Counted from the first letter of the stretch, positions 1,514 through 63,122 are shown. The stretch: 64,000 nt of DNA from Tepidisphaeraceae bacterium (GCA_965214125.1 CBDCBA010000011.1:1-64000), one strand, 5' to 3'. Translations and numbers: made by a program. Notes: generated from the sequence alone by a model not told the origin.

Positions 1514-2194
1514 TTGACGCTCGATTGGCTGCTTGGCTGGTGGAACCTGATCTTCCTGGTCCCGCTCGGGCTGGCGATGGCGTACCTGTTCGCCTACGCG
1601 CTCAGCGGCTGGACGTTTGGCGAGGCGGACATCGACGTCGAGGCCGAGCTTGAGGTCGACGCCGACGTGGAGGCGGAGGTCGACGCCGACGCCGATCACC
1701 CCGTCGCGCGGCCGGACATCGACGCCGACTCCGACGTCGGCCAAGCCCATGGATTGATGGCGGCCCTGACGTGGCTGGGCGTGGGCCGGGTGCCGCTATC
1801 GATCGTGCTGATGGTGCTCTTCCTGACGTTTGGGCTGATGGGCTTCGCGACGATGCAACTGCTGCGCGACGTCCTCGGCTCCAACGGGTTTTTCGTCGCG
1901 TTGCCGGTGGCGATTGTCCTGTCGTTCGGGCTGACGAGTGTGGTCAGCCGGCTGATCGCGCGGTACATGCCGTTGAACGAGTCGAGCGCCGAGGCGCGGG
2001 CGTCTTTCGTGGGGCGGCGTGGCGAGGTGATTTTCGCCGTCTCGCCCGAGGGCGGCACCGTGGTCGTCCGCGACGCCGGCGGCGACCTCTACCAGCTTCC
2101 CGCCCGGTCGGACGCGCCCATCGCCCCCGGCACCGCCATCGTGCTCACGAACTACGAGGACGGTACCTTCACGGTCCGGCCCTCTGGCCTCTGA
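1514..2194 (+). CDS. NfeD-like / YqiJ-like membrane protein (flotillin partner)
   Basis: Hydrophobic N-terminus (LDWLLGWWNLIFLVPLGLAMAYLFAY), an acidic D/E-V repeat linker, a second membrane segment pair and a C-terminal soluble beta-rich domain; it lies immediately upstream of a flotillin gene (yqiJ-yqiK-like arrangement). TTG start at 1514 is preceded by GGAGG 5 nt upstream; the longer ORF 1304.. has an Arg/Pro-rich, implausible N-terminus. Confidence 0.6.
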   Translation: MTLDWLLGWWNLIFLVPLGLAMAYLFAYALSGWTFGEADIDVEAELEVDADVEAEVDADADHPVARPDIDADSDVGQAHGLMAALTWLGVGRVPLSIVLMVLFLTFGLMGFATMQLLRDVLGSNGFFVALPVAIVLSFGLTSVVSRLIARYMPLNESSAEARASFVGRRGEVIFAVSPEGGTVVVRDAGGDLYQLPARSDAPIAPGTAIVLTNYEDGTFTVRPSGL

Positions 2195-2219: not shown

Positions 2220-4067
2220 ATGGTCTTCTTCGTCATGCTTCTCGTCGGCGCTGCCCTGGCCGTGGGTCCGTGGTTCGTGCCGAACCTGAGCGGAACGGTG
2301 CAGTTGGGCTTGAGCATCATTGGCCTGCTCGTGCTGATCGCCGCCGCCGTCGCGGCCGTGGTGACCAAGCTTTACCATAAGGCGTCGGCCAACATGGCCT
2401 TCGTCCGCACGGGCATGGGCGGCGCCCGCGTCGTGAAGGACGGCGGCACGATCGTCCTGCCCGTCGTCCACCAGGTCATCCCCGTCTCCCTTGAGACGAT
2501 GCGCCTCAACGTCGAACGCCGCGGCACCCACGCGCTCATCACCAAGGACAACCTGCGCGTCGATCTTTCGGCCGAGTTCTACATTAAGGTCCAGGCTAAC
2601 AGCGACGACATCCTCAACGCCTCGCGCTCCCTTGGCGAGCGATCCATTACGCCCGGCAGCGTGAGCGAGCTTGTGCAGGAAAAGCTCGTCAGCGCCCTGC
2701 GCACCGTCGCCGCCACGCAGGAGCTCGTCGAGCTGCACAGCAAGCGCGACGAGTTCGCCAGCAAGGTGCAGGCAATCGTCACGCACGACCTCGCCAGCAA
2801 CGGCCTGACGCTCGAGAGCGTGACCATCAGCGCCCTCGACCAAACCGACCCAAGCCAGCTACAGGAGCGCAACGTCTTCGACGCCCAGGGCCTGCGCAAG
2901 ATCGCGGAGATCACCCAACGGGCCAAGGTCCAGCGCAACGAGATCGAGCGGCAAAGCGAGCAGGAGATCACGACCCGCGACGTAGCGACGCGGAAGGAAG
3001 TGCTCGATCTTCAGCGGGATCAGGCCGAGTTCGAGGCGGAGCAGCGGATGAAGGTCGCCAACGTGCAGGCGGGGCGCAAGCGCGAGCAGGAGGAGTTCCG
3101 CATCGCCCAGGAGGAGGCGGTCAATCGTCGCGACATTGAGCGGCAGCAGGCGATCGAGGAGGCCGAGGTGCAGCGCAAGCTCGCGGTCGAGCAGGCGGAG
3201 GTGGCCAAGCGGGTGGCGTTGATCGAGAAGCTTCAACAGCAGGAGACGGCCGAGGTGTCGAAGCAGCAGGCGATCGAGGTGGCCGAGCGTCGCCGCGAAT
3301 CTGCGATCGCCGAGCAGGAACAGGAACGTGCCGCCGCCCAGGCGCGGGCGCTGGAGGCCGAGGCCGAGAAGGAGCAGGCGCGACAAGACGTGCTGACCGT
3401 CGAGGTCAAGAGCCAGGCGGACCGGGAGGCCGCGCAGAAGCTTATCGCGGCCCAGCAGATCATCGACGAGAGCCGCATCCGCGAGCAGACCGAGGCCGAG
3501 GTCGACGCGTTCCGGGTCATCAAGAAGGCCGACGCCGAGAAGCAGTCGGCCGAGGCGCAGGCGGAGGCGAAGCTGCGGTTGGCCGAGGCCGACGCCAGCG
3601 CCGAGAGCAAGCGTGCCGAGGGCGAGCGGGCACGTAAGAGCGTGGACGTGCAGATCGAGCGCGAGCGTGTCGCCGTCGAGCGCGAGCGGGTCGAGGTCGA
3701 GCGCCAGGAGCTAGCCAACCGCAGCGAGTTCGAGGTGGCCGCGCTGGAGTTCGAGCTCGACAAGCTGCGCATCGCCGCCGACAAGGAGGCCCGCATCGCG
3801 GCCGCCAACGCCATGGGGAACATGATGGCCAAGGCGAACATGCAGATCTTCGGCGATCCCGAAACCATGGCGAAGATGAGCGGCCGCTTCATGAGCGCCG
3901 CCGGCTTCGGCAACGCTGCCGACGGCCTGCTCCGCAGCCTGCCCCCCGAGGCCAAGCAGTTGGTCGACCAGTTGCAGGGCAAGCTCGCCGACGTGCTCGA
4001 GCCGGAAAAGGAAGACGCTGCCAGTCCCAAGCCGGTCAAGAAGGGCGCGAACGGCAAGGCGACCTGA
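2220..4067 (+). CDS. Flotillin-like SPFH/band-7 domain protein (YqiK family)
   Basis: N-terminal TM segment, then SPFH core (ANMAFVRTGMGGARVVKDGGTIVLPVVHQVIPVSLETMRLNVERRGTHALITKDNLRVDLSAEFYIKV), followed by a very long E/A/R/Q-rich coiled-coil and a C-terminal hydrophobic/amphipathic tail; typical bacterial flotillin architecture. Confidence 0.9.
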   Translation: MVFFVMLLVGAALAVGPWFVPNLSGTVQLGLSIIGLLVLIAAAVAAVVTKLYHKASANMAFVRTGMGGARVVKDGGTIVLPVVHQVIPVSLETMRLNVERRGTHALITKDNLRVDLSAEFYIKVQANSDDILNASRSLGERSITPGSVSELVQEKLVSALRTVAATQELVELHSKRDEFASKVQAIVTHDLASNGLTLESVTISALDQTDPSQLQERNVFDAQGLRKIAEITQRAKVQRNEIERQSEQEITTRDVATRKEVLDLQRDQAEFEAEQRMKVANVQAGRKREQEEFRIAQEEAVNRRDIERQQAIEEAEVQRKLAVEQAEVAKRVALIEKLQQQETAEVSKQQAIEVAERRRESAIAEQEQERAAAQARALEAEAEKEQARQDVLTVEVKSQADREAAQKLIAAQQIIDESRIREQTEAEVDAFRVIKKADAEKQSAEAQAEAKLRLAEADASAESKRAEGERARKSVDVQIERERVAVERERVEVERQELANRSEFEVAALEFELDKLRIAADKEARIAAANAMGNMMAKANMQIFGDPETMAKMSGRFMSAAGFGNAADGLLRSLPPEAKQLVDQLQGKLADVLEPEKEDAASPKPVKKGANGKAT

Positions 4068-4115: not shown

Positions 4116-5408
4116 ATGACCATCGCCCCGCCCCGCCCGCCTGTTCCCGCGCACGTTGAGCCGGAGGAGGTTCGCCTCCACGCGGCCGACATGGCGGTGG
4201 TCGCGTCGGCGGACGTGACGCTGGGCCAACTCCAAGCTCAGCTCGCCACCGTTGAGCCGCACCCGCAGTGGTTGCCGATCGACGGCGACGAGGACGCAAC
4301 GCTCCGCGAACTTGTTGAGCACGACTCGACGGGCCCGCTGCGCTTGGGTTACGGCGGCTGGCGCGACCGGCTGACGGGCGTGCAACTTCTCGACGGCGAC
4401 GGCCAGCGCATCACCGCCGGCGGGCTGCCAGTCAAGAACGTCGCCGGCTACGACCTCGTCCGCTTCGCCGTTGGCGGGCACGGGTGCTTTGGGCGGGTCG
4501 AAACCATTACCGTCCGCACCGCCCTGCGACCCGAGGCGGGCCTGACGGTCGAACTGCCGATCGAGCAGGGCCAACTAACGACGACAGTAAACCGCCTGCT
4601 CGTCAGCAATGCCCCGCCGCAGTGGATGCTTTGCCGCGCCGGCCTCCTGCGCTGCGGCTGGCTCGGGGACGACGCCGACCTCGACGCGCTCGCCCCGGCC
4701 ATCCGCGCGATTGCGGGCGTCGCTGCGACGCGGCAATCGCTCGCGCAGGACGCCGCCCTGCGTCGCGTCGCGCTGGCGCCGGTCCGGGCGTGGGTGCCGC
4801 CGTCGGGGATCGAGGGGTTGCTGCGCGGGGCTGATCGTCCGGGGTCGGACCCAGCCGCAAGCGACTGGGCGTTCGGAGAAACGGATGGTGAACGGCGTGT
4901 GTGCGGGACACAGAATGCGTTGCCCGCATCGACTCCCGATTCAACGTCCACGTCGAGCCTTGGTCGGACGTCCACATCGAGCCCCGACTCAACATCCACA
5001 TCGACTCCCATTACGTCTCCCACATCGGCGAAAAATCCATTGTCCACGTCGACTCTCGATCCGTCTTCGACGTCGAACCTCGAACCGTTGTCTGCGTCGA
5101 CTTCCAATCCGTCACCCCCGTCGTTATCCGATCCGACGAACGCCCAGTCGCTTGCGGCTGGGTCGGGGCCCGATCCGCACCCCGACCTGTGGGCGGATCC
5201 CATCCACGGCATCGTCTACCTGCCCCACCTGCCTGACGATTGCGACACGATCCTCAACGCCGGCGGCCACGTGACGGCGGTCGAGGGGCACGTGGTGCGG
5301 GTTTGCTCGCCGCACGCCCCATCGCCGTTGCTATCGCCGTTGCTCGCGGCGTTGAAGGCGCGGTTCGATCCTGACGCCAAGCTGCCGGCCTTGCCGACAT
5401 ACGCTTGA
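4116..5408 (+). CDS. GlcE-like FAD-linked oxidase subunit (N-terminally short) carrying an in-frame ~300-bp repeat insertion
   Basis: AADMAVVASADVTLGQLQAQL...LPID and GGLPVKNVAGYDLVRFAVGGHGCFGRVETITVRT resemble the FAD-binding PCMH domain of glycolate oxidase GlcE; the C-terminus ends ...KARFDPDAKL. The next gene is glcF-like (4Fe-4S/CCG). Residues ~245-345 are an S/T/P-rich 8-aa periodic insert encoded by an IR-flanked element (see repeat 4848..5164). Confidence 0.65.
   Translation: MTIAPPRPPVPAHVEPEEVRLHAADMAVVASADVTLGQLQAQLATVEPHPQWLPIDGDEDATLRELVEHDSTGPLRLGYGGWRDRLTGVQLLDGDGQRITAGGLPVKNVAGYDLVRFAVGGHGCFGRVETITVRTALRPEAGLTVELPIEQGQLTTTVNRLLVSNAPPQWMLCRAGLLRCGWLGDDADLDALAPAIRAIAGVAATRQSLAQDAALRRVALAPVRAWVPPSGIEGLLRGADRPGSDPAASDWAFGETDGERRVCGTQNALPASTPDSTSTSSLGRTSTSSPDSTSTSTPITSPTSAKNPLSTSTLDPSSTSNLEPLSASTSNPSPPSLSDPTNAQSLAAGSGPDPHPDLWADPIHGIVYLPHLPDDCDTILNAGGHVTAVEGHVVRVCSPHAPSPLLSPLLAALKARFDPDAKLPALPTYA
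4848..5164. mobile_element. IR-flanked ~317-bp insertion-like element inside the glcE-like CDS (28-bp perfect terminal inverted repeats; interior of degenerate ~24-bp tandem repeats; lower GC)
   Basis: Left arm gacccagccgcaagcgactgggcgttcg (approximately 4848-4875) is the exact reverse complement of the right arm cgaacgcccagtcgcttgcggctgggtc (approximately 5137-5164). The interior contains ~8 degenerate units built on a gtccacgtcgaNcc/cgtcgac core, period ~24 nt. The host reading frame is open on both strands. Confidence 0.6.
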
Positions 5409-7046
5409 GTGTCGACCTGCGTCCTCCAACGGCCTCGCACTCCCGCCGACGTTCGGCGGGAGCTTGCTGGCCGACCCCGCCTCGCCATGCCCAAGACTTA
5501 CCGGCCCAGCGCGAGCGTCGCCCCGCAGCCCGTCCAGCGTGCCGCGCCCGACCCGCCGAGCGTGCCTCCGGGCGACGCTGATGATGCCGCAGCCGCGGTC
5601 GAGCGTTTGGGACCCGCCATCGAACTGAAGCAGGCGGCCCTCGACGCGGGCAACAGTTGCGTGCAGTGCGGCCTGTGCCTGCCGGCGTGCCCGACGTACC
5701 TTGAAACCGGCAACGAGGCCGACTCCCCGCGCGGTCGCATCCGCCTGATGCTCGGGCTGCACAGCGGCGAGGTCGCCCACACCGACGCCGCCCAGACGCA
5801 CCTCGACCGCTGCCTCGACTGCCGCGCCTGCGAGACGGCCTGCCCGAGCGGCGTGCAGTACCACACGCTTATCGAGGACACGCGCGACAAGCTCGCCACC
5901 GACCGGCGCGATGGCGGCGAGCCGGTTGCCCCGCTTTCGCGCTGGCAACGGCGGCTCTTCTTTCACGTGTTCACCAAGCCCCAACGCCTGCGGGCCGCCA
6001 TCGCGGCGGCGCGGGCGGCAGACAAAATCGGGCTGCGTACCGGCCTGCGCGCGATTGGCGTGACCGACCTGTTTGGCTCGCGCGTCAAGCGCATGGAGGC
6101 CCTCCTGCCGATCGACGCCCACGCGAAGGTCTGGCCCAAGCCGCTCAAGCCGTTCTCCCCCGCGGGCGGGCTCGACCTGATTGTCGAGGGCTTCAAGCCG
6201 CCGAAGAAGGACGCGAAGCGCCAATCGAAGGCGCGGCCGACGATCGCATTTTTCGAAGGTTGCGTCAGCCAAGTTATGGCGGGGCACGTCCACCAGATGG
6301 CGGTCGAGCTGCTCAACGCCGCGGGCGCTGACGTGGTCGCCCCGCTCGGCCAGCAGTGCTGCGGGGCCATCCACCAGCACGGCGGCGACCCGGCCCACGC
6401 GCTGAAGCTGGCCAAGTTGAACATCGACGCCTTTCTTCCCGATGACGGCTCGGCCCCCGACGCCATCGTCTCCTGCACCGCCGGCGACGGCGCGATGCTC
6501 CGCCAGTACGCGGAACTGCTCGCCGACGACCCGGCCTACCGCGAGCGGGCCCAGCGCTTCGCGGCGCTCGTGCGTGACGTGACGGAGGTGCTTGTTGACC
6601 TCGGCGTCGGCGACCGAACGCCGGCCCTGGCGCACCCGGTCGCCGTCACCGCCGCCTACCACGATGCCTGTCACCTCGCCCACGGTCAAGGCGTGACGGC
6701 CGCGCCGCGCACGCTCCTGTCGCGCGTGCCGGAACTGACGCTAATCGACCTGCCCGAGAGCGATGTCTGTTGCGGCGCCGCCGGCACCTACAACCTCACG
6801 CAACCGGAGATGGCCAAGGAACTAGCCCACCGCAAGCTCGGCCGTTTCGCCGCGACGGGCGCGGGCGTTCTCGTCAGCGCCAACATCGGCTGCACCCTTC
6901 ACCTGCGGGCGGCGGCGACCGAGCGTGGCGAGCGGCTGCGGATCGCGCACCCGGTGGAACTCGTCCACGCGGCCGCGTTTGGTCGGCGGGCGTCGCGGCC
7001 GGAGCGGTGGAGCGAGCGGCACGGCAAAAATCGGGCGGCGCGATGA
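5409..7046 (+). CDS. glcF: Glycolate oxidase iron-sulfur subunit GlcF-like (4Fe-4S dicluster + two CCG domains)
   Basis: CVQCGLCLPACPTY ... CLDCRACETACPSGV (two ferredoxin-type clusters) followed by two Cys-rich CCG motifs (QQCCGAI, DVCCGAAGTY). The start could instead be M27 (nt 5487); the ATG at 5409 directly abuts the glcE-like stop. Confidence 0.8.
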   Translation: MSTCVLQRPRTPADVRRELAGRPRLAMPKTYRPSASVAPQPVQRAAPDPPSVPPGDADDAAAAVERLGPAIELKQAALDAGNSCVQCGLCLPACPTYLETGNEADSPRGRIRLMLGLHSGEVAHTDAAQTHLDRCLDCRACETACPSGVQYHTLIEDTRDKLATDRRDGGEPVAPLSRWQRRLFFHVFTKPQRLRAAIAAARAADKIGLRTGLRAIGVTDLFGSRVKRMEALLPIDAHAKVWPKPLKPFSPAGGLDLIVEGFKPPKKDAKRQSKARPTIAFFEGCVSQVMAGHVHQMAVELLNAAGADVVAPLGQQCCGAIHQHGGDPAHALKLAKLNIDAFLPDDGSAPDAIVSCTAGDGAMLRQYAELLADDPAYRERAQRFAALVRDVTEVLVDLGVGDRTPALAHPVAVTAAYHDACHLAHGQGVTAAPRTLLSRVPELTLIDLPESDVCCGAAGTYNLTQPEMAKELAHRKLGRFAATGAGVLVSANIGCTLHLRAAATERGERLRIAHPVELVHAAAFGRRASRPERWSERHGKNRAAR

Positions 7047-8029
7047 GCAATGCAAGGGCCGGCGTGACGGGCGACACGATGGTTCTCGCCGGCATCGACG
7101 AGGCGGGTTACGGCCCGGTGCTCGGACCGTTCACCCTCGGCTGCTGCGCCGTCCGCGTCCCGAAGCCCGGCGACGGCCTGCCGGACGTCTGGAACCTGCT
7201 CAAGACGGCCGTCTCCGCCAAGCGTGATCGCACCGGGCGACGTTTGCACGTGAACGACTCGAAGAAGGTCTACTCGCCATCGCTGGGGCTGAAGGAGCTC
7301 GAGAAGTCGATGCTCGCGGTGCGGCCGGCGGCGAGCTTCGACGCGTTTCTTGCCGCCGTTGATCCGGCGGCGCCGGAGCGCTCCCGCGAGGTGCCGTGGT
7401 ACGCCGCCCCGTCGGATGAGCCCCACCCGCACGCCACCGACGCCGCGGCCGTCGCCATTGCCGCCAACGCGTTGAAGCATGCCCGCGAATCGAGCGGCGT
7501 GGGGGCGTTCGAAGTCGGCGGGCGCGTCGTGTTCGAGCCGGAGTACAACCGCCTCTGCGACACCCTGCGCAACAAGTCGGCCGTGGCGCAGACGATCGTC
7601 GCCCAGCTCATCGATGGCCTGCTCCAACGCCACGCGAGCGACGGCTTGACCATAGTGGTTGATCGCCAGGGCGGCCGCTCGCACTACGGCGACTTTCTGC
7701 GGCAGATGTTCGGCGCGTGGGAACTTTCGGTGCTGCGGGAGGACGACGCGCGGGCCGACTACACGCTGTCACGAGGCACTGATTCGGTGCAGATCACGTT
7801 CGCCGAAAAGGCCGAGACGCTGGCGTTGCCAACGGGCTTGGCGTCGATGACGGCCAAGTACCTGCGCGAGCGCCTGATGGGCCGCTTCAACGCTTGGTGG
7901 CGGTCGCACGACCCGTCGCTCAAGCCGACCGCCGGCTACTGGACCGACGGCCACCGCTGGCTTGAGGAGTCGCACGCACTCCGCGACCGCCTCGGCATCG
8001 ATCAATCGACGCTCGTGCGCCGCCGGTGA
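7043..8029 (+). CDS. RNase HII-family-like protein with ~130-aa C-terminal extension
   Basis: MVLAGIDEAGYGPVLGPFTLGC matches the RNase HII catalytic N-terminal motif (G-[IV]-DE-[AV]-G-R-G-P, here Tyr replaces Arg), and HVNDSKKVYS matches the DSKK motif. The ATG at 7043 overlaps the glcF-like stop (ATGA); MVLAG at 7079 is an alternative start. Confidence 0.55.
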   Translation: MSNARAGVTGDTMVLAGIDEAGYGPVLGPFTLGCCAVRVPKPGDGLPDVWNLLKTAVSAKRDRTGRRLHVNDSKKVYSPSLGLKELEKSMLAVRPAASFDAFLAAVDPAAPERSREVPWYAAPSDEPHPHATDAAAVAIAANALKHARESSGVGAFEVGGRVVFEPEYNRLCDTLRNKSAVAQTIVAQLIDGLLQRHASDGLTIVVDRQGGRSHYGDFLRQMFGAWELSVLREDDARADYTLSRGTDSVQITFAEKAETLALPTGLASMTAKYLRERLMGRFNAWWRSHDPSLKPTAGYWTDGHRWLEESHALRDRLGIDQSTLVRRR

Positions 8030-11877: not shown

Positions 11878-13299
11878 GTGGAACTCCTCTCGAATAATCC
11901 GGCGACGGGCGACGTGGTGTGGCGTGGACCCTCGTCCTCCACATCGGACGTGGCCGATGCCGTCGCAGCCGCCCGCGCGGCCCAGCCGGCGTGGGCAGCG
12001 CGACCGAGCGAGGAGCGCCGCGCGATTCTCACCCGCTTCGCCGAGCTCGCGACGGAGCGCAAGTCGGACCTGGCCGACCTCATTCTCACCGAAGCCGGCC
12101 GCGTGCGGAGCGACGCCAACGCCGAGGCCGGCGCGGTGGCGGGCAAGGTGAAGCTCACGTTCGCCGCCCTCGACGGGCGTCGGGCGGACGAGCGCCACGA
12201 TCTTGGCAACGGCCTTGTCGGCCGGGTGACGCACAAGCCGATCGGCGTCCTGGCGGTGCTCGGGCCGTTCAACTTCCCGATGCACCTCGCCAACGGCCAC
12301 CTCGTGCCGGCCCTGCTGACGGGCAACGCCTGCGTCTTCAAGCCAAGCGAGCTCACGCCCGCGTGCGGCGAACTGCTCGCATCGCTCTTCCACGAAGCCG
12401 GCGTGCCGGAGGACGTGCTGCGCGTCGTCCAGGGCGGTCGGGAGACGGGCGAGGCCCTTGTCGGGGGCGATGTGGACGGCGTGCTGCTCACCGGCAGTGA
12501 CCGCGCTGCCGAGGCTATCTACAAGACGCTGCGCTATGACCAACTGCTAGCGGTCGAGGCCGGCGGAAACAACCCGCTCGTCGTTCACGGGCCCGTCGAC
12601 GTCGAGCAGGCCGTCAAGCTGACGATCGAGTCCGCCTACGTCTCCGCAGGCCAACGATGCACGTGCGCCCGTCGACTAATCGTGACCGATGACGTGCCGA
12701 ACGAGTTTATCGATAAGCTCGTCGCCGCCGTTCGCGAGGTGAGGGTTGATCTGCCGGAGAACGACCCGCTGGTCGGCCCGCTCATTTCGCAGCGTGCCGT
12801 CGATGCCTTGCTCGAGGCGCAGCGTCAGTTGCTTGACGCGGGCGCGACGGCGCTCGTCGCAGGGTCGAGCGCGGCAGACCTGCGACGCGTGGCGTCGCAG
12901 CTACCCGGTGGTGGCGCGTTTGTTTCCCCAGGATTGATGGATACCACAGGTGTCGGTGCGCCCGATGCCGAAGTGTTCGGACCCCTTCTGCAACTCGAAC
13001 GTGTCGACACTTTTGAGGGCGCGATCCACGCGGCGAACGCCACGCGGTACGGCCTTGCGGCCGGCTTAGTTGGCGGCACGCGCGAGGAGTTCGAGCGGTT
13101 CCTACACAAAAGCCGCGCCGGCTGCGTGAACTGGAACCGTCCGCTGACCGGCGCCAGCGGCAAGCTCCCCTTCGGCGGCGTCGGGCGTAGCGGCAACTCC
13201 CGCCCCGCCGGCTCGACGAGCATCGACTACTGCACCTACCCGGTCGCGACGCTCGAAGAAGAAGACTCACCACGGAGGCACGGAGACACGGAGGAGTAA
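11878..13299 (+). CDS. astD: Succinylglutamate-semialdehyde dehydrogenase (aldehyde dehydrogenase family)
   Basis: Aldehyde dehydrogenase fold (GPFNFPMHLANGHLVPALLTGNACVFKPSELTP; catalytic Cys region AGQRCTCARRL); its position between astA and astB supports AstD. GTG start. Confidence 0.8.
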   Translation: MELLSNNPATGDVVWRGPSSSTSDVADAVAAARAAQPAWAARPSEERRAILTRFAELATERKSDLADLILTEAGRVRSDANAEAGAVAGKVKLTFAALDGRRADERHDLGNGLVGRVTHKPIGVLAVLGPFNFPMHLANGHLVPALLTGNACVFKPSELTPACGELLASLFHEAGVPEDVLRVVQGGRETGEALVGGDVDGVLLTGSDRAAEAIYKTLRYDQLLAVEAGGNNPLVVHGPVDVEQAVKLTIESAYVSAGQRCTCARRLIVTDDVPNEFIDKLVAAVREVRVDLPENDPLVGPLISQRAVDALLEAQRQLLDAGATALVAGSSAADLRRVASQLPGGGAFVSPGLMDTTGVGAPDAEVFGPLLQLERVDTFEGAIHAANATRYGLAAGLVGGTREEFERFLHKSRAGCVNWNRPLTGASGKLPFGGVGRSGNSRPAGSTSIDYCTYPVATLEEEDSPRRHGDTEE

Positions 13300-13359
13300 G
13301 CTGTTGCTTCGGCCTCTGAAGCCAATCTCTCCTCTCCGTGTCTCCGTGCTTCCGTGGTG
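13268..13359 (+). promoter_or_regulatory. Imperfect ~29-bp inverted repeat spanning the astD 3' end and the astB translation start
   Basis: caccacggaggcacggagacacggaggag (astD codons for PRRHGDTEE + stop) pairs with ctcctctccgtgtctccgtgcttccgtggtg, whose 3' end contains the GTG GTG start of astB; 32-nt spacer. Confidence 0.5.
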
Positions 13360-14715
13360 AACTACTCCGAATACAACTTCGACGGCCTCGTCGGCCCCAC
13401 GCACAACTACGCCGGGCTCGGCAGCGGGAACCTGGCGTCGATGTCGAGCAAGGCCAGCGTCAGCCACCCGCGGGCGGCGGCGTTGGAGGGCCTCTCGAAG
13501 ATGCGCCTCCTCGCCAACCTCGGCGTGCCGCAGGCGATCCTCCCGCCGCAACGTCGGCCACACCTAGGCTACCTGCGAAGCTGCGGGTACGGCAGTAAAC
13601 CGGCCGAGGTTCTTGAGAATGCCGCAAAGGCCGGCGACGCGGGTCGGCGCGATCTGGCGATTGCCAGCAGCGCCAGCAGCATGTGGGCCGCCAACGCCGC
13701 GACGGTCTCGCCCAGCCCCGACACGGCCAACGGCCGGTGCCACTTCACGATCGCCAACCTCGCCAGCCAGCGCCACCGGGCGCTGGAGTCGTTCGAGCGG
13801 CTGACGATCTTTGAGCACCTGTTCGGCGACGGGCGGTACTTCAAGGTCCACCCGCCACTGCCAAGCACGTTGCCGGACGAGGGGGCGGCGAACCACACGC
13901 GGTTGAGCGGCTTCGATTTTGAACTGGGCTACCACATCTTCACCTACGGGTTCGACGCGACATCCAGCCTAATACAAGGGAAGTTCCAGCCGCGACAATC
14001 GCTTGGTGCTTCGCGGCGGATCGCGGAGCAGCACGGGCATGTTTTCCAGTTTCCGTCGGGTGCCGAGTGCTTCGTGAAGCAGACGCAGGAGGCGATCGAG
14101 GCAGGCGTGTTCCACAACGACGTCATCAGTGTCGGCAACGAGTTCGTGCTGTTGATCCACGAGCATGCGTGGGTCAATCAGCCGACGGCGGCCGATGCCG
14201 TTCACGACGCCATGCACATCGCCGGTGTCGATGAGGTGCGGATGACATTTACAGACAAAGAACTGCCAATAGCGGAAGCGGTTCAGTCTTACCTCTTCAA
14301 CTCGCAGCTCGTCACGCTGCGTGGAATCAAGGGCGAAGACAACTGGGAGTGCAAGATGGTCCTCGTCTACCCCGCCGAGTGCGAGGAGATCCCGTCGGCG
14401 AAGGCGGCGATCGAGCGCATCCTGCGGGAGGACAATCCCGTCCAGCACGCCGTGCGGGCGGACGTCCGCCAGAGCATGCGCAACGGCGGCGGGCCGGCCT
14501 GCTTACGGCTGCGGGTCGTGCTGAGCGACGAGGAGAAGGCTGCTGTCCGCGGGAACGTCTTCTGGACGCCGGCGCTGCACGACACGCTCGTCGATTGGGT
14601 CACGCGGCACTACCGCGAAGCCCTCACGCCCGCCGACTTGGCCGACGTGCGGCTGTACGAAGAGAGCGAGACGGCCCTCGACGAGCTGGCGGAGATTCTG
14701 CAACTGCCGATCTGA
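13354..14715 (+). CDS. astB: N-succinylarginine dihydrolase
   Basis: VNYSEYNFDGLVGPTHNYAGLGSGNLAS closely parallels the AstB N-terminus ([24 protein letters not shown]); full-length ~450 aa. GTG start. Confidence 0.85.
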   Translation: MVNYSEYNFDGLVGPTHNYAGLGSGNLASMSSKASVSHPRAAALEGLSKMRLLANLGVPQAILPPQRRPHLGYLRSCGYGSKPAEVLENAAKAGDAGRRDLAIASSASSMWAANAATVSPSPDTANGRCHFTIANLASQRHRALESFERLTIFEHLFGDGRYFKVHPPLPSTLPDEGAANHTRLSGFDFELGYHIFTYGFDATSSLIQGKFQPRQSLGASRRIAEQHGHVFQFPSGAECFVKQTQEAIEAGVFHNDVISVGNEFVLLIHEHAWVNQPTAADAVHDAMHIAGVDEVRMTFTDKELPIAEAVQSYLFNSQLVTLRGIKGEDNWECKMVLVYPAECEEIPSAKAAIERILREDNPVQHAVRADVRQSMRNGGGPACLRLRVVLSDEEKAAVRGNVFWTPALHDTLVDWVTRHYREALTPADLADVRLYEESETALDELAEILQLPI

Positions 14716-14716
14716 C

Positions 14717-14790
14717 GTAGGGTGGGATTCATCCCACCATCGGCGGCGGGAAGGGTGCGACCACGGATGGTGGGATGAATCCCACCCTAC
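14717..14790. repeat. REP/MITE-like palindromic element, family A copy 1 (GTAGGGTGGGATTCATCCCACC...GGTGGGATGAATCCCACCCTAC)
   Basis: 22-bp arms that are themselves internally palindromic (tgggattcatccca), ~30-nt spacer; starts 2 nt after the astB stop. Confidence 0.85.
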
Positions 14791-14910
14791 GGCGAAAGTC
14801 GCAACAGGGGCTCGACGCTCCTATGGTCAGCGTTCGCCAGCAAAGACGCCCCCCGTCGCCGACCGCGTGCGTCGGCGGCACACGCAACGGAGTCCGGAGA
14901 ACGCCGCCCG

Positions 14911-18057: not shown

Positions 18058-18326
18058 GCGATACGACGAACGACACTGAAACGGGTGCCCCGGCCGCGGA
18101 CGCTGCGACCGATCCCGTGGCCTTCTGGCAAAGCGGCGGCGGGATCGACCAGCTCGCCGACCCGCGTCCGTTCGGGCACGAGAACGCCCTGCAAAAACTC
18201 GGCCGCCCGCCGTTCGACAAGAGCGCCCGCAGCAAGTTCCGCCTGCTCGGCTTCCTCGCGACCGTATACGAACACGTGCGCGACGACGTAAATGAGGATG
18301 GCGGGGCACCAGAAGAAGGTCGATAG
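18054..18326 (+). CDS. Small hypothetical protein, translationally coupled to the SNF2 gene (ATGA overlap)
   Basis: 90-aa ORF whose ATG overlaps the helicase stop by 4 nt; acidic N-terminus, no recognisable domain. Its stop codon is the first nt of a REP-C palindrome. Confidence 0.4.
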   Translation: MSDTTNDTETGAPAADAATDPVAFWQSGGGIDQLADPRPFGHENALQKLGRPPFDKSARSKFRLLGFLATVYEHVRDDVNEDGGAPEEGR

Positions 18327-18398
18327 CCGCGACGCAACGCGGCGCGGTCGGGAGTCGCTGCGACACCGTCAGACCACGCCGCGTTGCGTCGCGGCTAT
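18323..18398. repeat. REP-like element family C copy 1 (22-bp perfect IR atagccgcgacgcaacgcggcg / cgccgcgttgcgtcgcggctat, ~32-nt loop)
   Basis: Between convergent small ORF 18054..18326 and hexokinase; the loop sequence (gtcgctgcgacaccgtcagacca) resembles the loop of copy 2. Confidence 0.75.
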
Positions 18399-18425
18399 CA
18401 CGCGTTTTGTGCAACGCATGCCTGT

Positions 18426-21668: not shown

Positions 21669-21756
21669 CCAAACCGCGTTGCAACGCAACGCTGGTCCGG
21701 CTTTCCGCGTCGCTGCACGTTCGCTCAGACCAGCGTTGCGTTGCAACGCGGTTTGG
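21669..21756. repeat. REP-C copy 2 (29-bp IR ccaaaccgcgttgcaacgcaacgctggtc / gaccagcgttgcgttgcaacgcggtttgg)
   Basis: Lies between nth and the downstream membrane-protein gene on the minus strand; shares the aaccgcgttgc...gcaacgcggtt core with copies 1 and 3. Confidence 0.75.
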
Positions 21757-23233: not shown

Positions 23234-23291
23234 GCGGGCGGCAGCATAACGGGTGCGCGATCTGCGAAGTGGTGCCGCGGTTCTCTTTCGC

Positions 23292-23360
23292 GTTAGCCGC
23301 CCCGCCTCGCGGGGCGAGCGCGTGGCCATCGAGCGCCCCGCGAGGCGGGGCGGCTAAAGG
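23292..23360. repeat. REP-like palindromic element, family B copy 1 (TTAGCCGCCCCGCCTCGCGGGGCG ... CGCCCCGCGAGGCGGGGCGGCTAA)
   Basis: ~23-bp GC-rich arms with ~20-nt spacer, in the divergent region between the lpxI-like (-) and PqqD-like (+) genes. Confidence 0.8.
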
Positions 23361-23441
23361 GGAACCGCCAGATCAGGCGCAGTTCCATCGCTTCCTCAGG
23401 AACAGGCGCAAGCGGGCGCGTCGCGCGTAACGTGACGCCGC

Positions 23442-29569: not shown

Positions 29570-29660
29570 CCTACGGCCGCGTGCGTCATCACACGCCGCT
29601 CGCGTGGGGTAGCCGCGGATCTTAATCCGCGCTTCGGTTCCCGATCGGTGTGCGGCGCGC
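29570..29660 (+). ncRNA. Candidate structured RNA / regulatory leader in a 460-bp intergenic region (unclassified)
   Basis: ggtagccgcgg ... ccgcggctacc closing stem (11 bp) enclosing the nested hairpins gcggat-ctta-atccgc and ggacc-aa-ggtcc. No match to any ncRNA family I can recognise by eye. Confidence 0.2.
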
Positions 29661-30025
29661 GGACCAAGGTCCGCGGCTACCACCGGACAACAATGATGCA
29701 AGATGGGTGAATGTCGGTGGCACGTGGAAGCCGCGCTGGCGGGAGATTTCCTCGCGCACCGATGCGCCTCGCGGGCGTTTGGATGGGAGACTGGTGCAAT
29801 CGTGCAGCCTCAACCCTTGCCGCCGACGGTCACGCCTGAACCGGCGAGGGCGCGTCGGGCCGGCTGGCACCGGCTTTGCGATCTTCCCGTTCGACCGTCG
29901 CGCTGTTGAACCCCCGCGCAGCGGCCGATGAACGAGTGGCATGCGCCGCCGTTCGCCGACATGAGTCTCGCTCGTCACCACCAAGCGAGGTCGGCACCGT
30001 TTGTTCAAACCCGCGCTTCTTCCCA

Positions 30026-42343: not shown

Positions 42344-42850
42344 ATGGCAACTCAAACCGATCCAAAGCACGAGCCCGACCGCAACGAAGACCCCATCACC
42401 GGCTCGCCCGGCAGCCACCCGGCCGGCACGGGCATTGGCGCCGCCAGCGGCGCGGCAACGGGCGCGGCCGTGGGCGCGATTGGCGGCCCGGTCGGCGCCG
42501 TCATCGGCGGCGTGAGCGGCGCGATCGTCGGCGGCCTGATCGGCCACGGCATCGGCGAGGCCGTCGATCCGACCGAAGACGCCTACTGGCGCGAAAACCA
42601 CGCCAGCCGCGACTACTACGACAAAGGCTACGGCTACGACGACTACGAGCCCGCGTACCGCCTCGGCTACAACGCCGCCGAGGCTCGCCGTGGCGACGAC
42701 AAGTACGTTCCGGCCTACGACGACGACACCGACAAGGCCCTTGGCGAGCACTACGACAAGTCGTTCCGCGGCGAGAGCAAGCTCGACTGGGACCGCGCCC
42801 GCCACGCCACCCGCGACGCCTACGAACGCCGCGCTCAGGCCAGCGCGTAA
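42344..42850 (+). CDS. Glycine-zipper membrane protein with charged Tyr/Asp-rich C-terminal domain
   Basis: AGGAG 5 nt before the ATG; GIGAASGAATGAAVGAIGGPVGAVIGGVSGAIVGGLIGHGIG glycine-zipper; C-terminus YWRENHASRDYYDKGYGYDDYEPAYRLGYN. Confidence 0.7.
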   Translation: MATQTDPKHEPDRNEDPITGSPGSHPAGTGIGAASGAATGAAVGAIGGPVGAVIGGVSGAIVGGLIGHGIGEAVDPTEDAYWRENHASRDYYDKGYGYDDYEPAYRLGYNAAEARRGDDKYVPAYDDDTDKALGEHYDKSFRGESKLDWDRARHATRDAYERRAQASA

Positions 42851-44010: not shown

Positions 44011-45399
44011 CTACAGGCTTGCTTCAACGATCTTGCGCACCTCGCTCACCCGCGCCTCGGCCGCGTCGCGCTCGGGGGCCTCGGCGATAATTCGCAGGAT
44101 CGGCTCCGTGTTGCTCGCGCGCACGCTCACCCAGCCGTCGGGCCAATCGACGCGCAGGCCGTCGCTCGTGTCGATGTTCTCGTTGTCGTACTTCTTCGCG
44201 ACGAGGTCGATGGCGGGCTCGGCGTCCTCCTTCTTCGGCAGGGGGAGCTTGTCCTTGACGATCACGTAGCTGGGAATCTCCGCAACAAGTTCACTGAGCG
44301 TCTTGCCACTTTCGGCCATGAGTTGCAGGACGTACGCCATTGCTACGAGTGAGTCGCGGCCGGGGACGATGCGCGGGTCGATCACTCCGCCGTTGCCCTC
44401 GCCGCCGATAACGGCGTCGTTCTCCAGCATCGCGTTGATGACGTTCGCCTCCCCCACCGCCGACCGCACGACCGTCGCGCCGTTTTCGGCGGCGATGTCG
44501 TTGAGCATCCGGCTGGTCGACTGGTTCGTGCCGGCGACGGCGTTCTGCCCCTTCTTCTTTCCGAGCACGAACTTTGCCGCGAGGGCAAGCGTGTACTCCT
44601 CGCCGATGTACCGGCCGTTCTCGTCGACGATCGCCAAACGGTCGGCGTCGGGGTCCTGCGCGAACCCGACCGCCGCCTTCTGCCGCCGCACTTCTTCGCA
44701 CAACCCCTGGAGGTTCGCCTCCGTCGGCTCGGGCTCGTGCGGGAACTGACCGTTGGGCGTGTTGTGCATGTGAACCAGCCGCACGCCAAGCTTGCTGAGC
44801 AGCGTCGCACAACTCACACATCCGGCCCCGTTGACACTGTCGACCACGACCTTGAATGCCTGAGTCGAAATCCCCAGCACGTCGACGCGGTCGAGCACCT
44901 TCTTGATGTGAACCGCGTGCGCCGTCGGGTCGTGCTGCGGGCTGGCAAGCTGCTCGACCGAGACTGTCGGCAGGACCTCGTCGTCGTAAAACTCGCGGAT
45001 GGCGGCGACGTCTTCGGGAGGCGGCGCGACGCTGCGGTCGGTCAGGAACTTGAGCCCGTTCCATTCGATCGGGTTGTGGCTGGCCGTCGCGACGACGCCG
45101 GCGTCGGCCTTCAGGTGCTGCACCATGATCGCGACGGCCGGCGTGGTGACGACGGCTAGATCAATCACCTCGATCCCCGCCGCGGTCAGCGTGCCGAGCA
45201 CGGTGTCGCGGACCCACATGCCGCTGGGCCGACTGTCGCGCCCAAAGACCACGACCGGCCGCCTGTCGCCGCACCGCTGTTTCAGCCACGCGGCGAACGC
45301 CCCGCTCATCCGCTGGACCACGCGCGGCGTCAGGCTTCCGCCGATCGTCCCGCGCATCCCGCTCACGCCGATCATCAGTGCGTCGCTCATTGCCGGCAT
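44011..45399 (-). CDS. Phosphoglucomutase/phosphomannomutase family protein (PMM/PGM or GlmM-like)
   Basis: GVSGMRG (active-site Ser loop), ATASHNP (phosphoserine motif TASHNP), DPDADR (Mg loop), GGEGNGG (sugar-binding), RASNTEP (phosphate-binding). Start at MPAMSDALMIG with GAGGTG 10 nt upstream. Confidence 0.85.
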   Translation of the reverse strand: MPAMSDALMIGVSGMRGTIGGSLTPRVVQRMSGAFAAWLKQRCGDRRPVVVFGRDSRPSGMWVRDTVLGTLTAAGIEVIDLAVVTTPAVAIMVQHLKADAGVVATASHNPIEWNGLKFLTDRSVAPPPEDVAAIREFYDDEVLPTVSVEQLASPQHDPTAHAVHIKKVLDRVDVLGISTQAFKVVVDSVNGAGCVSCATLLSKLGVRLVHMHNTPNGQFPHEPEPTEANLQGLCEEVRRQKAAVGFAQDPDADRLAIVDENGRYIGEEYTLALAAKFVLGKKKGQNAVAGTNQSTSRMLNDIAAENGATVVRSAVGEANVINAMLENDAVIGGEGNGGVIDPRIVPGRDSLVAMAYVLQLMAESGKTLSELVAEIPSYVIVKDKLPLPKKEDAEPAIDLVAKKYDNENIDTSDGLRVDWPDGWVSVRASNTEPILRIIAEAPERDAAEARVSEVRKIVEASL

Positions 45400-45413
45400 T
45401 CTTAGGCAACACC

Positions 45414-46526
45414 TCAGGCACCAAAATATCGTGCGTGCGCAGAGCGGGCCGCCGACAGGTCGGTCGTGCCCTGCACGATCACGCGGGCGTCGCGGAAGGC
45501 GGTCATGCGGATCGATGGTCGATCGGCCGGCGTAAAGCGGAGCATCATCGGCGTCTGCGACACCTCGCCGAGCGGGCGGAGTTTCGCGGCGAGAATGTCC
45601 AGCTTCCACGTCGCGTTGGGCGTGCGAAGTTGGACCGCACCGCGGCCGCACAGGGCGACGGCGTCGCCTGCGGGTTGGTCGAGGAAAGGGAACTCGTGGC
45701 GGGCGCAGCAGGGACAAGTTGGGTCTTTCGCGGACGACAGGTCGATTGTGCGGAACTCGCCCGTCCAGACGTCGAACGCTTGCAACGCGCGCGGCGGGTC
45801 GCCGCTGACGAGCGTGCGAATCGCGAGGGCGGCCTGTAGATTGCCGACAATTCCCGACGCCGCCGCGAGGATGCCGGCGGTGTCGCACGTCTCCAACTCC
45901 CCCGGCGGCGGCGGATCGCGGAAGACGCAGCGCAGGCAAGGACCCGCCTCCGCCGTAGGGTGGGATTTATCCCACCTCTGGTTCGATTGATCCGACTCGC
46001 CGGATGGTGGGATGAATCCCACCCTACCCAGAGCCATCGCCCTTCCCTCCGTGCCGACGGCGGCGCCGTAGATCCACGGCTTGCCACGCTTCACCGCAGC
46101 GTCGTTGAGCAGGTACCGCGTGGCGGCGTTGTCGGTGCCGTCAACGATCAGGTTGGCCTCCTCGACGAGGGCGAGGACGTTGTCGACATCGACGTCGACT
46201 GGCCGCGGTTCGAGGGAAATCGAAGAGTTGACGCGCTGCAACCGCTCGGCGGCGGCGACGGCCTTGGGGCGGCTGTCGGTCGCGTCGGCTTCGTCGTACA
46301 GGGTTTGACGTTGGAGATTGGTCACCTCGACCAAATCGCGATCGATCAAGATCAGCCGGCCGACGCCGGCGCGGGCGAGCGAGTCGGCGGCAACGGTGCC
46401 GAGCGCCCCGCAGCCGAGGATGGCGACGGTAGCCTCCGCGAGCCGAGCCTGGCCGGCGTCGCCGATCTGCGGGAGAAGGGTTTGGCGGTGGTAGCGGTCC
46501 GGCACGGGTTCATAGGATACGGGCAA
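45414..46526 (-). CDS. ThiF/MoeB/HesA-family E1-like adenylyltransferase with in-frame REP insertion and ~100-aa C-terminal extension
   Basis: RYHRQTLLPQIGDAGQARLAEATVAILGCGALGT (Rossmann GxGxxG), LILIDRDLVEVTNLQRQ and two CxxC pairs (CLRC ... CPCC). Residues GRVGFIPPSGESDQSNQRWDKSHPT are encoded by REP-A2 (45955..46027). TTG start at 46526, or GTG at ~46505. Confidence 0.75.
   Translation of the reverse strand: MPVSYEPVPDRYHRQTLLPQIGDAGQARLAEATVAILGCGALGTVAADSLARAGVGRLILIDRDLVEVTNLQRQTLYDEADATDSRPKAVAAAERLQRVNSSISLEPRPVDVDVDNVLALVEEANLIVDGTDNAATRYLLNDAAVKRGKPWIYGAAVGTEGRAMALGRVGFIPPSGESDQSNQRWDKSHPTAEAGPCLRCVFRDPPPPGELETCDTAGILAAASGIVGNLQAALAIRTLVSGDPPRALQAFDVWTGEFRTIDLSSAKDPTCPCCARHEFPFLDQPAGDAVALCGRGAVQLRTPNATWKLDILAAKLRPLGEVSQTPMMLRFTPADRPSIRMTAFRDARVIVQGTTDLSAARSAHARYFGA
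45955..46027. repeat. REP-A copy 2, inserted in-frame within the ThiF/MoeB-like CDS
   Basis: gtagggtgggatttatcccacc...ggtgggatgaatcccaccctac; translated in the host frame as GRVGFIPPSGESDQSNQRWDKSHPT. Confidence 0.85.
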
Positions 46527-46957: not shown

Positions 46958-47025
46958 GGTGGGATTCATCCCACCATCGGGTCAACAAGTTGCTGCATTC
47001 GGAGGTGGGTTGAAACCCACCCTAC
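46954..47025. repeat. REP-A copy 3 (variant right arm ggtgggttgaaacccaccctac)
   Basis: Begins at or overlaps the stop of the YlbF-like gene; 9 nt before the EVE gene start. Confidence 0.8.
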
Positions 47026-47529: not shown

Positions 47530-47538
47530 TTTCCGCGC

Positions 47539-57475: not shown

Positions 57476-57485
57476 CCGCGTGTCC

Positions 57486-63025: not shown

Positions 63026-63042
63026 ACGTCGCCCAATTGCCC

Positions 63043-63105: not shown

Positions 63106-63122
63106 GGGTTGCGAAACATCAT

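What the first reader, a model, noticed from the sequence alone, without database searches (positions are those of the whole stretch)
4848..5164. IR-flanked, tandem-repeat-filled, lower-GC ~317-bp insertion kept in-frame inside a glcE-like gene
Perfect 28-bp terminal inverted repeats bracket ~260 bp of degenerate 24-nt tandem units that are visibly lower in GC than the host gene. The glcE-like frame stays open through it, adding an S/T/P-rich 8-aa-periodic segment (DSTSTSSL GRTSTSSP DSTSTSTP ITSPTSAK ...) between the FAD-binding region and the conserved C-terminus (...KARFDPDAKL). The opposite strand is also stop-free (VDV-rich). This looks like a MITE-like element with internal VNTR that has been domesticated as a disordered linker, or like an intervening element.
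Basis: seen in the sequence. Interest (0 to 1): 0.65.

Follow-up and report, generated by a model that had tools for sequence, protein, structure and literature searches.

The report
Orphan inverted-repeat insertion inside glcE-like gene
A 317-bp piece of compositionally foreign DNA, bounded by perfect 28-bp inverted repeats and filled with nine degenerate 24-nt repeats, sits in a tolerant surface loop of a glycolate-oxidase-like gene and is read through as a floppy serine/threonine-rich loop; it looks like a one-off MITE-like insertion rather than a new kind of system.

Summary
Perfect 28-bp inverted repeats (4848-4875 and 5137-5164) bracket nine degenerate 24-nt units (4917-5132). GC is about 0.58 against about 0.70 for the host. 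The GlcE-like ORF (4116-5408) stays open through the insert.

The insert is lineage-specific. The 120 best of 473 homologues are 242-350 aa long, and the 68 aligned lack it, including a 76%-identical orthologue whose locus was read. It lies in the most indel-prone loop of the family. AlphaFold models it as disordered (pLDDT below 50 for residues 248-350) between well-folded domains.

Its in-frame GC3 is 0.60, against a gene median of 0.885. The arms are perfect but the units are only 59% alike. The simplest reading is a recent arrival of a pre-formed element. Domestication and an active VNTR are not supported.

No second copy was found: none in the window, 185,579 species genomes, JGI metagenomes, viral contigs, plasmids or phages. 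The peptide searches returned only the source protein. I found no clean target-site duplication and no transposase or recombinase in the 64 kb.

MITE membership is therefore unproven. It behaves like in-frame palindromic elements (RPE, intragenic ERIC/REP).

Flipping the segment between its arms also keeps the ORF open, so an untested "recoding inverton" reading remains.

The parts
4116..5408 (+). Host gene: GlcE-like FAD-linked oxidoreductase subunit, 430 aa including the insert and about 322-324 aa without it.
   Evidence: NCBIfam GlcE PRK11282 gives a partial match, E 3e-21, below the curated cutoff. Pfam FAD_binding_4 is weak. There are 473 homologues; the 120 listed are 242-350 aa. The AF2 model matches D-lactate dehydrogenase / VAO-fold structures.
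4848..4875 (+). Left 28-bp inverted-repeat arm, translated as DPAASDWAF. It is itself an imperfect stem-loop.
   Evidence: Exact reverse complement of 5137-5164.
4876..4916 (+). 41-nt unique subterminal segment. It is partly complementary to 5113-5136 and contains a small hairpin (TGCGGG...CCCGCA).
   Evidence: The 60-nt, 78% extension of the inverted repeat, and the sequence read.
4917..5132 (+). Nine direct, degenerate 24-nt units, consensus CCGTCGTCCACGTCGACTCCCGAT. They encode the 8-aa periodic S/T/P-rich peptide; the antisense reading is a D/V/G-rich repeat.
   Evidence: mean pairwise identity 59%; positions C8, C11, T13, C14, G15 invariant. The weight-matrix scan shows that the array stops at these limits.
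5133..5136 (+). 4-nt spacer (CCGA) between the last unit and the right arm.
   Evidence: Sequence read.
5137..5164 (-). Right 28-bp inverted-repeat arm, translated as NAQSLAAGS. It forms a 9-bp stem with a 4-nt loop, and its unpaired head CGAAC faces inward.
   Evidence: arm-arm RNA duplex -63.8 kcal/mol; arm hairpin -15.3 kcal/mol.
4840..4847 (.). Left flank CGGGGTCG. It is weakly complementary to 5165-5172 and is a possible part of the inserted DNA, because at least 1 extra nt is needed to keep the frame.
5165..5172 (.). Right flank GGGGCCCG. It matches the left flank 5 of 7 as a direct repeat, so it is not a clean target-site duplication.
5487..7046 (+). Downstream glcF-like iron-sulfur subunit (the longest ORF starts at 5409). 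This is operon context and shows that the host locus is intact.
   Evidence: NCBIfam GlcF E 6e-86; Pfam CCG and 4Fe-4S domains.

Best explanation
This is a recently acquired, non-autonomous, IR-bounded piece of foreign or non-coding repeat DNA. It is MITE-like: two REP-like stem-loop arms face each other around a 24-nt tandem array. It landed in the most length-variable surface loop of a GlcE-like protein.

Translation simply continues through it for two reasons. The inserted length (IR unit plus 1, 4 or 7 extra nt) is a multiple of three, and the frame that happens to be read has no stop codon. The result is about 106 extra residues of S/T/P-rich disordered loop between helix 229-238 and strand 359-361, with both flanking domains still foldable.

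I read it as a tolerated passenger, not an adapted linker. Its only strong structure is the 28-bp arm duplex, which could form in the mRNA or as a cruciform in DNA.

Shown: the anatomy, lineage specificity, compositional foreignness, predicted disorder and open frame. Inferred: arrival by transposition, recency, and neutrality.
For: - A perfect 28-bp inverted repeat bounds a discrete unit. The repeat array is strictly confined between the arms.
- The 120 best homologues are 242-350 aa and the 68 aligned lack the insert, including the 76%-identical P0002/P0121 and its locus L004.
- The insertion point falls in the least conserved, most gapped columns of the family alignment.
- AF2 gives 265 residues at pLDDT 90 or more. 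Residues 248-350 are below 50 and have no secondary structure.
- GC by codon position is 0.40/0.74/0.60 in the insert interior (4876-5136), against 0.79/0.52/0.86 in the upstream part of the host gene. The interior GC3 of 0.598 lies below the 1st percentile of windows in the other genes, whose median is 0.885.
- The arms have 0 of 28 mismatches while the internal units are only 59% alike. The units therefore diverged before the present arm pair came to be identical, which fits a recent insertion of a pre-formed element.
- Three of six frames are stop-free, so roughly half of random insertion phases and orientations would be read through. No special 'domestication' is needed.
- In-frame intragenic MITE/RPE/REP insertions are documented (PMC10969869, PMC3733652, PMC5896051).
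Against: - No second copy of the arm or the element was found anywhere accessible: the window, 185,579 species-representative genomes (3 single hits that do not extend and have no partner arm), JGI metagenomes, viral contigs, and plasmids and phages.
- The in-frame peptide has no relative among 1.84 billion cluster representatives.
- The arm and subterminal translations in all six frames hit only the source protein among 5.8 billion clusters.
- No target-site duplication of 2 nt or more abuts the repeats.
- No transposase or recombinase domain was found in the 50 ORFs scanned across the window.
- The rest of the source genome could not be examined.
Confidence: 0.5

Rival explanations
1. Intragenic 'recoding' inverton. 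The perfect 28-bp inverted repeats are recombination sites, and flipping the 261-bp interior toggles the loop between an S/T/P-rich version and an acidic D/V/G-rich version of the same length.
For: Reverse-complementing 4848-5164 in silico leaves a complete 430-aa ORF with unchanged N- and C-terminal parts. The antisense frame -0 is stop-free, with 23% D+E. The arms are perfectly identical although they encode different peptides, which is what recombination or gene conversion between them would maintain. Recoding intragenic invertons exist in other bacteria (PMC10028968).
Against: No invertase or recombinase domain was found in the 64-kb window. With 3 of 6 frames open, the second open orientation has a chance probability of roughly 0.4. 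The whole cassette, arms included, is missing from every aligned relative, so there is no sign of a conserved switch. The loop is predicted to be disordered in the reference orientation, so a functional difference between the two states is not evident. No read data could be examined.
Confidence: 0.08
2. In-situ origin. A native linker expanded by slippage of a 24-nt unit, and the inverted repeat arose by a template-switch or fold-back repair event. No mobile element was involved.
For: The element is single-copy in everything searched, and no target-site duplication was found. There is a 15/16-nt identity between native sequence at 4653-4668 (coding CGWLG) and the right arm/flank junction at 5153-5168, which might hint at local templating (D2). 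The genome has other 24-nt-period coding repeats, for example 1621-1695.
Against: No unit-like sequence exists in the flanks or in the orthologue's linker. An in-frame GC3 of 0.60 is far from host usage, which is unexpected for sequence grown from native DNA. If the units had diverged in place to 59% identity, the arms should have accumulated about 10 mismatches, yet they have none. The 16-nt match has blastn E = 1 within the window.
Confidence: 0.15
3. Assembly artefact. A fragment from another, lower-GC organism or a hairpin-type chimera was spliced into a metagenome-assembled contig.
For: The source appears to be an environmental assembly: a single 74.5-kb contig, a cluster of one protein, and named relatives that are MAGs. 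The insert has a GC content and codon usage unlike the host. It has no relative anywhere.
Against: The junctions are not shared k-mers with the host gene, because the orthologue has nothing like the arms. The insert preserves the frame and lacks stops, with a prior of roughly 1/6 for random DNA. It lies exactly in the structurally permissive loop. Its architecture is organised (arms, subterminal complementarity, a confined array) rather than a random splice.
Confidence: 0.12
4. Removable intervening sequence: an intein, a group I/II intron, or an RNase III-excised IVS that is taken out of the RNA or the protein.
For: The 28-bp perfect stem (-63.8 kcal/mol) brings the two borders together in the RNA, as the helices flanking rRNA intervening sequences do (established knowledge).
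Against: No Rfam family matches, even at E up to 10. The interior RNA is no more structured than shuffles (z = +0.33). No Pfam or intein domain is found, and the 106 aa are low-complexity without splicing blocks. Removing exactly the IR-bounded 317 nt would break the reading frame. RNase III cutting of an mRNA is not followed by religation (established knowledge).
Confidence: 0.02

Closest known systems
Rickettsia palindromic elements (RPE) and other intragenic MITEs (intragenic ERIC, Coxiella QMITE1)
   Same: A small palindromic or IR-bounded element without a transposase. It is inserted inside a housekeeping gene, read through in frame, and adds a peptide at a structurally tolerant surface position (PMC10969869; PMC5896051).
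   Different: Those are multi-copy families (tens of copies per genome) with recognisable consensus peptides. RPEs are about 100-150 bp and some carry a CGTC tag. This element is a singleton in all data searched, is 317 bp, has no CGTC or GTAG tag, contains an internal 24-nt tandem array, and shows no sequence similarity to anything.
REP inverted dimers / REPINs (GTAG- and CGTC-tagged palindromic repeats)
   Same: Each arm is a REP-sized stem-loop (9-bp stem, 4-nt loop, short unpaired head and tail), and the two are arranged head-to-head in inverted orientation. Such repeats occur in Planctomycetes and sometimes inside genes (PMC3733652). The same window carries a genuine GTAG-headed REP family in inverted doublets.
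   Different: The head is CGAAC, neither GTAG nor CGTC. The arms are 261 bp apart, and the literature examined gave no figure for typical dimer spacing. The arms are unrelated to the window's own REP family. No RAYT gene is in the window.
Pneumococcal BOX elements (boxA-(boxB)n-boxC)
   Same: Modular architecture: partly complementary terminal modules enclose a variable number of tandem internal modules. The large forms carry ORFs (architecture from my own knowledge; the ORF point is from PMC10969869).
   Different: BOX is a multi-copy, mostly intergenic, Streptococcus-specific family with 45-nt internal modules. No homology was found, and here there is only one copy.
Recoding intragenic invertons (PMC10028968)
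   Same: An inverted-repeat pair lies entirely inside a gene, and both orientations keep the reading frame open.
   Different: No evidence of flipping is available, no invertase is nearby, and the cassette is itself a lineage-specific insertion rather than part of the conserved gene.

Membership tests
MITE | Terminal inverted repeats. | tested here: met
   28/28 perfect, extending to 60 nt at 78%.
MITE | Small size (under about 600 bp) and no transposase ORF. | tested here: met
   317 bp. None of the three stop-free frames has a Pfam hit at E up to 10.
MITE | Target-site duplication flanking the inverted repeats. | tested here: not met
   No direct repeat of 2 nt or more abuts the arms. Only shifted 4-mers (GGGG, GATC, TCCG) are found, as expected by chance.
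MITE | Multiple dispersed copies. | tested here: inconclusive
   No second copy in the 64-kb window, species-representative genomes, JGI metagenomes, viral contigs, plasmids or phages, or protein space.
MITE | A cognate autonomous IS with matching inverted repeats. | tested here: inconclusive
   No transposase domain in the 50 ORFs scanned in the window. The genome-wide search was not possible.
RPE / CGTC-tagged REP | An unpaired CGTC tag next to an 8-9-bp stem whose first two positions are almost invariably complementary A/T residues (PMC3733652). | tested here: not met
   The head is CGAAC and the stem starts GCCC (compared).
RPE / CGTC-tagged REP | In-frame residence inside protein-coding genes. 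| tested here: met
   The ORF is open through the element.
GTAG REP / REPIN | A GTAG head and an associated RAYT. | tested here: not met
   The arms have no GTAG. No RAYT-like domain is in the window. The window's true GTAG REPs have a different sequence.
Intragenic inverton (recoding type) | An inverted-repeat pair within one gene, with both orientations keeping the ORF. | tested here: met
   The in-silico inversion gives an uninterrupted 430-aa product.
Intragenic inverton (recoding type) | Reads supporting both orientations, and an invertase. | not testable with these tools
   No read data are available. No recombinase is in the window.
VNTR / minisatellite | Near-identical tandem units prone to copy-number change. 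| tested here: not met
   Mean pairwise unit identity is 59%, range 42-75%. Length polymorphism itself is not testable, because no close strain exists in the protein collection.
Intein / self-splicing intron | Conserved splicing blocks, or a catalytic RNA fold. | tested here: not met
   No Pfam hit. No Rfam hit at E up to 10. The interior RNA is unstructured.
GlcE (host gene) | Full-length match to the GlcE equivalog model. | tested here: not met
   75.5 bits against a cutoff of 284. Only profile positions 57-200 are matched, hence 'GlcE-like'.
GlcE (host gene) | A VAO/PCMH FAD-linked oxidase fold, with glcF next to it. | tested here: met
   Foldseek top hits are D-lactate dehydrogenases, E about 1e-12. 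GlcF lies immediately downstream.

The most novel reading that the evidence does not exclude
The cassette is a self-contained invertible coding module. A pair of REP-like stem-loops brought in a stop-free repeat array that can be flipped in place. One gene would then make either a neutral S/T/P-rich loop (possibly glycosylatable) or a strongly acidic D/V/G-rich loop in a glycolate-oxidase subunit. In other words, a recoding intragenic inverton would have been created by a mobile-element insertion.
Probability: 0.06. Interest if true: 0.7.

Novelty: new member of a known kind. Interest (0 to 1): 0.33.

Why it matters
If the insertion is real, it is a clean example, outside Rickettsia, Coxiella and the enterics, of selfish or foreign palindromic DNA being absorbed into a metabolic enzyme as a disordered loop. 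It occurs in a Planctomycetota-like, 70% GC genome.

It shows how such events survive: a permissive loop, an element with stop-free frames, and an inserted length divisible by three. The contrast between perfect arms and diverged internal units gives a relative clock for the event.

Its wider importance is limited. It is a singleton with no detectable relatives, so no family, mechanism or function can be generalised from it. The only reading that would raise its importance is an invertible recoding cassette, and that needs read-level data.

Tried and rejected
1. Concatenated sense and antisense peptides joined with X residues as one protein query. It returned nothing, not even the source protein, so it is uninformative. 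It was replaced by the exhaustive search and by a six-frame arm/subterminal pseudo-protein whose self-hit served as the positive control.
2. Arm 20-mer in species genomes. This gave three single hits, in a Bacteroidia MAG, Elainella and a Planctomycetia MAG. They stop at 20-22 nt and have no inverted partner, so I treat them as chance.
3. The 18-nt arm core in viral contigs. This gave six single hairpin or terminator-like coincidences.
4. Two-unit core pattern in metagenomes. There were at least 120 hits, and only L084 showed weak similarity. L084 is a 35-copy (TCCACG)-based 24-nt array encoding S/T-rich repeats, which is generic low complexity and not a homologue.
5. MAFFT DNA alignment to the orthologous locus failed to place the gap. 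The boundaries were taken from the protein alignment instead. The loop is too diverged to reconstruct an exact empty site.
6. Looking up the source contig or near-identical strains by exact neighbouring proteins found nothing on record.
7. A Tn3-type terminal repeat (the outer GGGGTC at 4841) was considered from memory. The inner TAAG motif is absent and the GGGG flank is not symmetric, so this lead was dropped.
8. A Xer/dif-like 28-bp site was considered from memory. The arm has no 6-8-bp central spacer between half-sites, so this lead was dropped.
9. I asked which frame the units evolved in. Conservation by codon position is 0.71/0.81/0.69, with no clear third-position relaxation, so the result is not informative.

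Full report
**1. What is there**

- GACCCAGCCGCAAGCGACTGGGCGTTCG lies at 4848-4875. Its exact reverse complement lies at 5137-5164.
- There is no other match in the 64-kb window at up to 3 mismatches, and none in 100 dinucleotide shuffles.
- Complementarity decays but remains detectable for about 24 nt further inward and 8 nt outward (60 nt at 78%).
- Between the arms lie, in order: a 41-nt unique segment; nine direct 24-nt units at 4917-5132 (consensus CCGTCGTCCACGTCGACTCCCGAT; mean pairwise identity 59%; five invariant positions forming the core TCCACRTCGA); and 4 nt of spacer.
- A weight matrix built from the units finds no further unit in either flank. The array is therefore confined to the IR-bounded unit.
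- GC falls to 0.57 in a 0.70-0.80 background.
- Three of the six reading frames are stop-free, which none of 2000 shuffles achieved.
- As RNA, the only structure beyond chance is the arm duplex (-63.8 kcal/mol). The interior folds no better than shuffles, z = +0.33.
- Each arm is itself a REP-like stem-loop with a 9-bp stem and a 4-nt loop. The unpaired heads (CGAAC) face each other.

**2. The host gene**

- ORF 4116-5408 (430 aa) gives a partial, sub-threshold match to the GlcE model (NCBIfam E 3e-21, profile positions 57-200).
- A clear glcF follows it (E 6e-86).
- With a 68-sequence alignment, AlphaFold2 gives a confident model, with 265 residues at pLDDT 90 or more. Its best PDB matches are D-lactate dehydrogenases and other VAO-fold flavoenzymes.
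- The named relatives are Planctomycetota/Tepidisphaeraceae MAG proteins.

**3. The segment is a lineage-specific insertion in a permissive loop**

- The protein search returned 473 homologues. The 120 best are 242-350 aa long.
- None of the 17 and then 68 sequences aligned contains the segment.
- The closest relative is P0002/P0121, at 76% local identity. It has GLLEQLTAAHEADLWADP where the window has GLLRGADRPGS[106 aa]GPDPHPDLWADP. Reading its locus L004 confirms the absence at the DNA level.
- The insertion point lies in the least conserved, most indel-rich columns of the family.
- In the model it lies between helix 229-238 and strand 359-361. Residues 248-350 have pLDDT below 50 and no secondary structure.

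**4. It is compositionally foreign and probably young**

- In the gene frame, GC at codon positions 1/2/3 is 0.79/0.52/0.86 in the upstream part of the gene and 0.72/0.49/0.86 downstream. In the insert interior (4876-5136) it is 0.40/0.74/0.60.
- Among 87-codon windows in the other genes of the window, the median GC3 is 0.885 and the 1st percentile is 0.678. The insert scores 0.598.
- The arms have no mismatch, yet the internal units are only 59% alike. If the units had diverged in place, the arms should carry about ten mismatches.
- The simplest reading is that an already-diverged array arrived together with its arms not long ago. Neither feature fits a long-domesticated linker or an active VNTR.

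**5. Search for relatives**

Nothing was found.
- The arm 20-mer in 185,579 species-representative genomes gave three single matches in unrelated organisms. They end at 20-22 nt and have no partner arm.
- An arm 22-mer gave no match in JGI metagenomes.
- The 18-nt core gave six isolated hairpin coincidences in viral contigs.
- blastn against plasmids and phages gave nothing.
- Sensitive blastn of the element against the window itself gave only matches of 19 nt or less, at E 0.25 or higher.
- An exhaustive phmmer search with the in-frame peptide against 1.84 billion cluster representatives returned only the source protein.
- A pseudo-protein made of the arm and subterminal translations in all six frames returned only the source protein among 5.8 billion clusters. 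That self-hit served as the positive control.
- Rfam and Pfam in three frames gave nothing.
- A two-unit core pattern hit many metagenome contigs. The only weakly similar one, L084, is a generic (TCCACG)n-based S/T-coding array.
- The source contig and close strains are not in the positional index, so presence/absence or orientation polymorphism could not be tested.

**6. Tests of mobility hallmarks**

- No direct repeat of 2 nt or more abuts the arms. Only displaced 4-mers occur.
- 317 is not divisible by three. Deleting exactly the IR-bounded unit truncates the protein at residue 268. Deleting 318 or 324 nt restores a 322-324-aa protein of normal size.
- The real insertion is therefore 1, 4 or 7 nt larger than the IR unit, but its edges cannot be fixed because the loop is too diverged from the orthologue.
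- Pfam scans of 50 ORFs in the window (47 picked by GC3 plus the RNase HII-like ORF at 6770-8029) found only housekeeping functions, with no transposase, RAYT or invertase.

**7. Interpretation**

The best explanation (confidence about 0.5) is a one-off, recent insertion of a non-autonomous, IR-bounded element or captured repeat fragment. It survived for three reasons:
- it hit a permissive loop;
- its inserted length keeps the frame;
- the frame read has no stop codon.

With 3 of 6 frames open, about half of all insertion phases and orientations would be read through, so no adaptive 'domestication' needs to be invoked.

It works like the in-frame palindromic elements of Rickettsia (RPE) and like intragenic ERIC, QMITE and REP insertions (PMC10969869, PMC5896051, PMC3733652). 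Its modular layout recalls pneumococcal BOX elements. I cannot claim membership of the MITE class: the target-site duplication test failed and the multi-copy test is unmet in all accessible data.

The rivals are:
- an in-situ origin (0.15), weakened by the foreign codon usage, the absence of units in the flanks, and the perfect arms;
- an assembly chimera (0.12), weakened by the frame preservation, the organised architecture and the permissive location, but not excluded without reads;
- a recoding intragenic inverton (0.08);
- a spliced intervening sequence (0.02).

**8. The most novel reading still allowed**

Reverse-complementing the segment between its arms leaves a complete 430-aa ORF. In it, the S/T/P-rich loop becomes an acidic D/V/G-rich loop with 23% D+E. 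That is the architecture of a 'recoding intragenic inverton' (PMC10028968), and recombination between the arms would explain their perfect identity. However, the second open frame has a chance probability of roughly 0.4, no invertase is nearby, and no reads are available. I give this reading about 6%.

**9. Verdict**

This is a new, orphan sequence of a known kind: an IR-bounded miniature insertion read through in frame. Interest is moderate to low (0.33), because it is a singleton without relatives, mechanism or evidence of function. Read-level data from the source sample would settle reality, polymorphism and orientation quickly.

Noticed in passing
window 14716-14791, 45955-46027, 46954-47025, 63040-63108: A GTAG-headed REP family (GTAGGGTGGGATTCATCCCACC) gives 13 hits at up to 3 mismatches, against 0 in shuffles. 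The copies are arranged as inverted doublets (REPIN-like) in intergenic spaces. The family is unrelated in sequence to the arms of the finding. It resembles the GTAG-tagged REPs reported in Planctomycetes (PMC3733652). No RAYT gene was seen in the window.
   Followed up: partly
window 23286-23364 and 57484-57554; also 18322-18399, 21669-21756, 13267-13360, 29608-29681, 47427-47533: Several further intergenic palindromes with 25-47-nt arms at 88-100% complementarity. Two of them share the arm GTTAGCCGCCCCGCCTYGCGGGGCG, which would make a second repeat family. The one at 47427-47533 is unusually AT-rich for this genome.
   Followed up: no
window 4116-5408 and homologues P0002-P0120: The whole GlcE-like clade is short (about 290-330 aa). 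It matches only positions 57-200 of the 358-position GlcE profile, far below the curated cutoff. Here it sits between an SPFH/flotillin-like gene (2220-4067) and glcF, with no glcD adjacent. It may be a distinct two-subunit variant of the glycolate/lactate oxidase system.
   Followed up: no
window 4653-4668 versus 5153-5168: A 15/16-nt identity links native gene sequence (TGCGGCTGGCTCGGGG, coding the conserved CGWLG motif) to the right arm/flank junction (TGCGGCTGGGTC|GGGG). It spans the element boundary. A match of this size is expected about once per window by chance (blastn E = 1), but this one lies only 500 bp away in the same gene. It remains unexplained.
   Followed up: partly
window 1621-1695 (in the YqiJ-like gene 1304-2194): A native 24-nt-period coding repeat gives an acidic D/V/E/A stretch (DIDVEAELEVDADVEAEVDADAD) with normal host codon usage. 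It resembles the antisense translation of the element in composition only, with no DNA similarity beyond 10 nt. Other 24-nt-period arrays lie at 42482-42557 and 60687-60747.
   Followed up: partly
window 44011-45939 (-), N-terminal about 190 codons: This is the lowest GC3 window in the whole region, 0.53. It lies upstream of the first phosphoglucomutase domain, which starts at residue 190. It probably reflects an over-extended ORF start running into the REP-bearing intergenic region, not coding sequence.
   Followed up: no
L084 563-1417 (metagenome contig OJIS01009924.1): A 35-copy, 24-nt-period array (TCGACTTCCACGTCCACGTCCGCC) built on the hexamer TCCACG. Its longest ORF, 470 aa, is on the opposite strand and reads as ADVEVEVE-type repeats. 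It shows that S/T-coding and antisense D/V-coding 8-aa-period arrays of this type arise elsewhere independently.
   Followed up: partly
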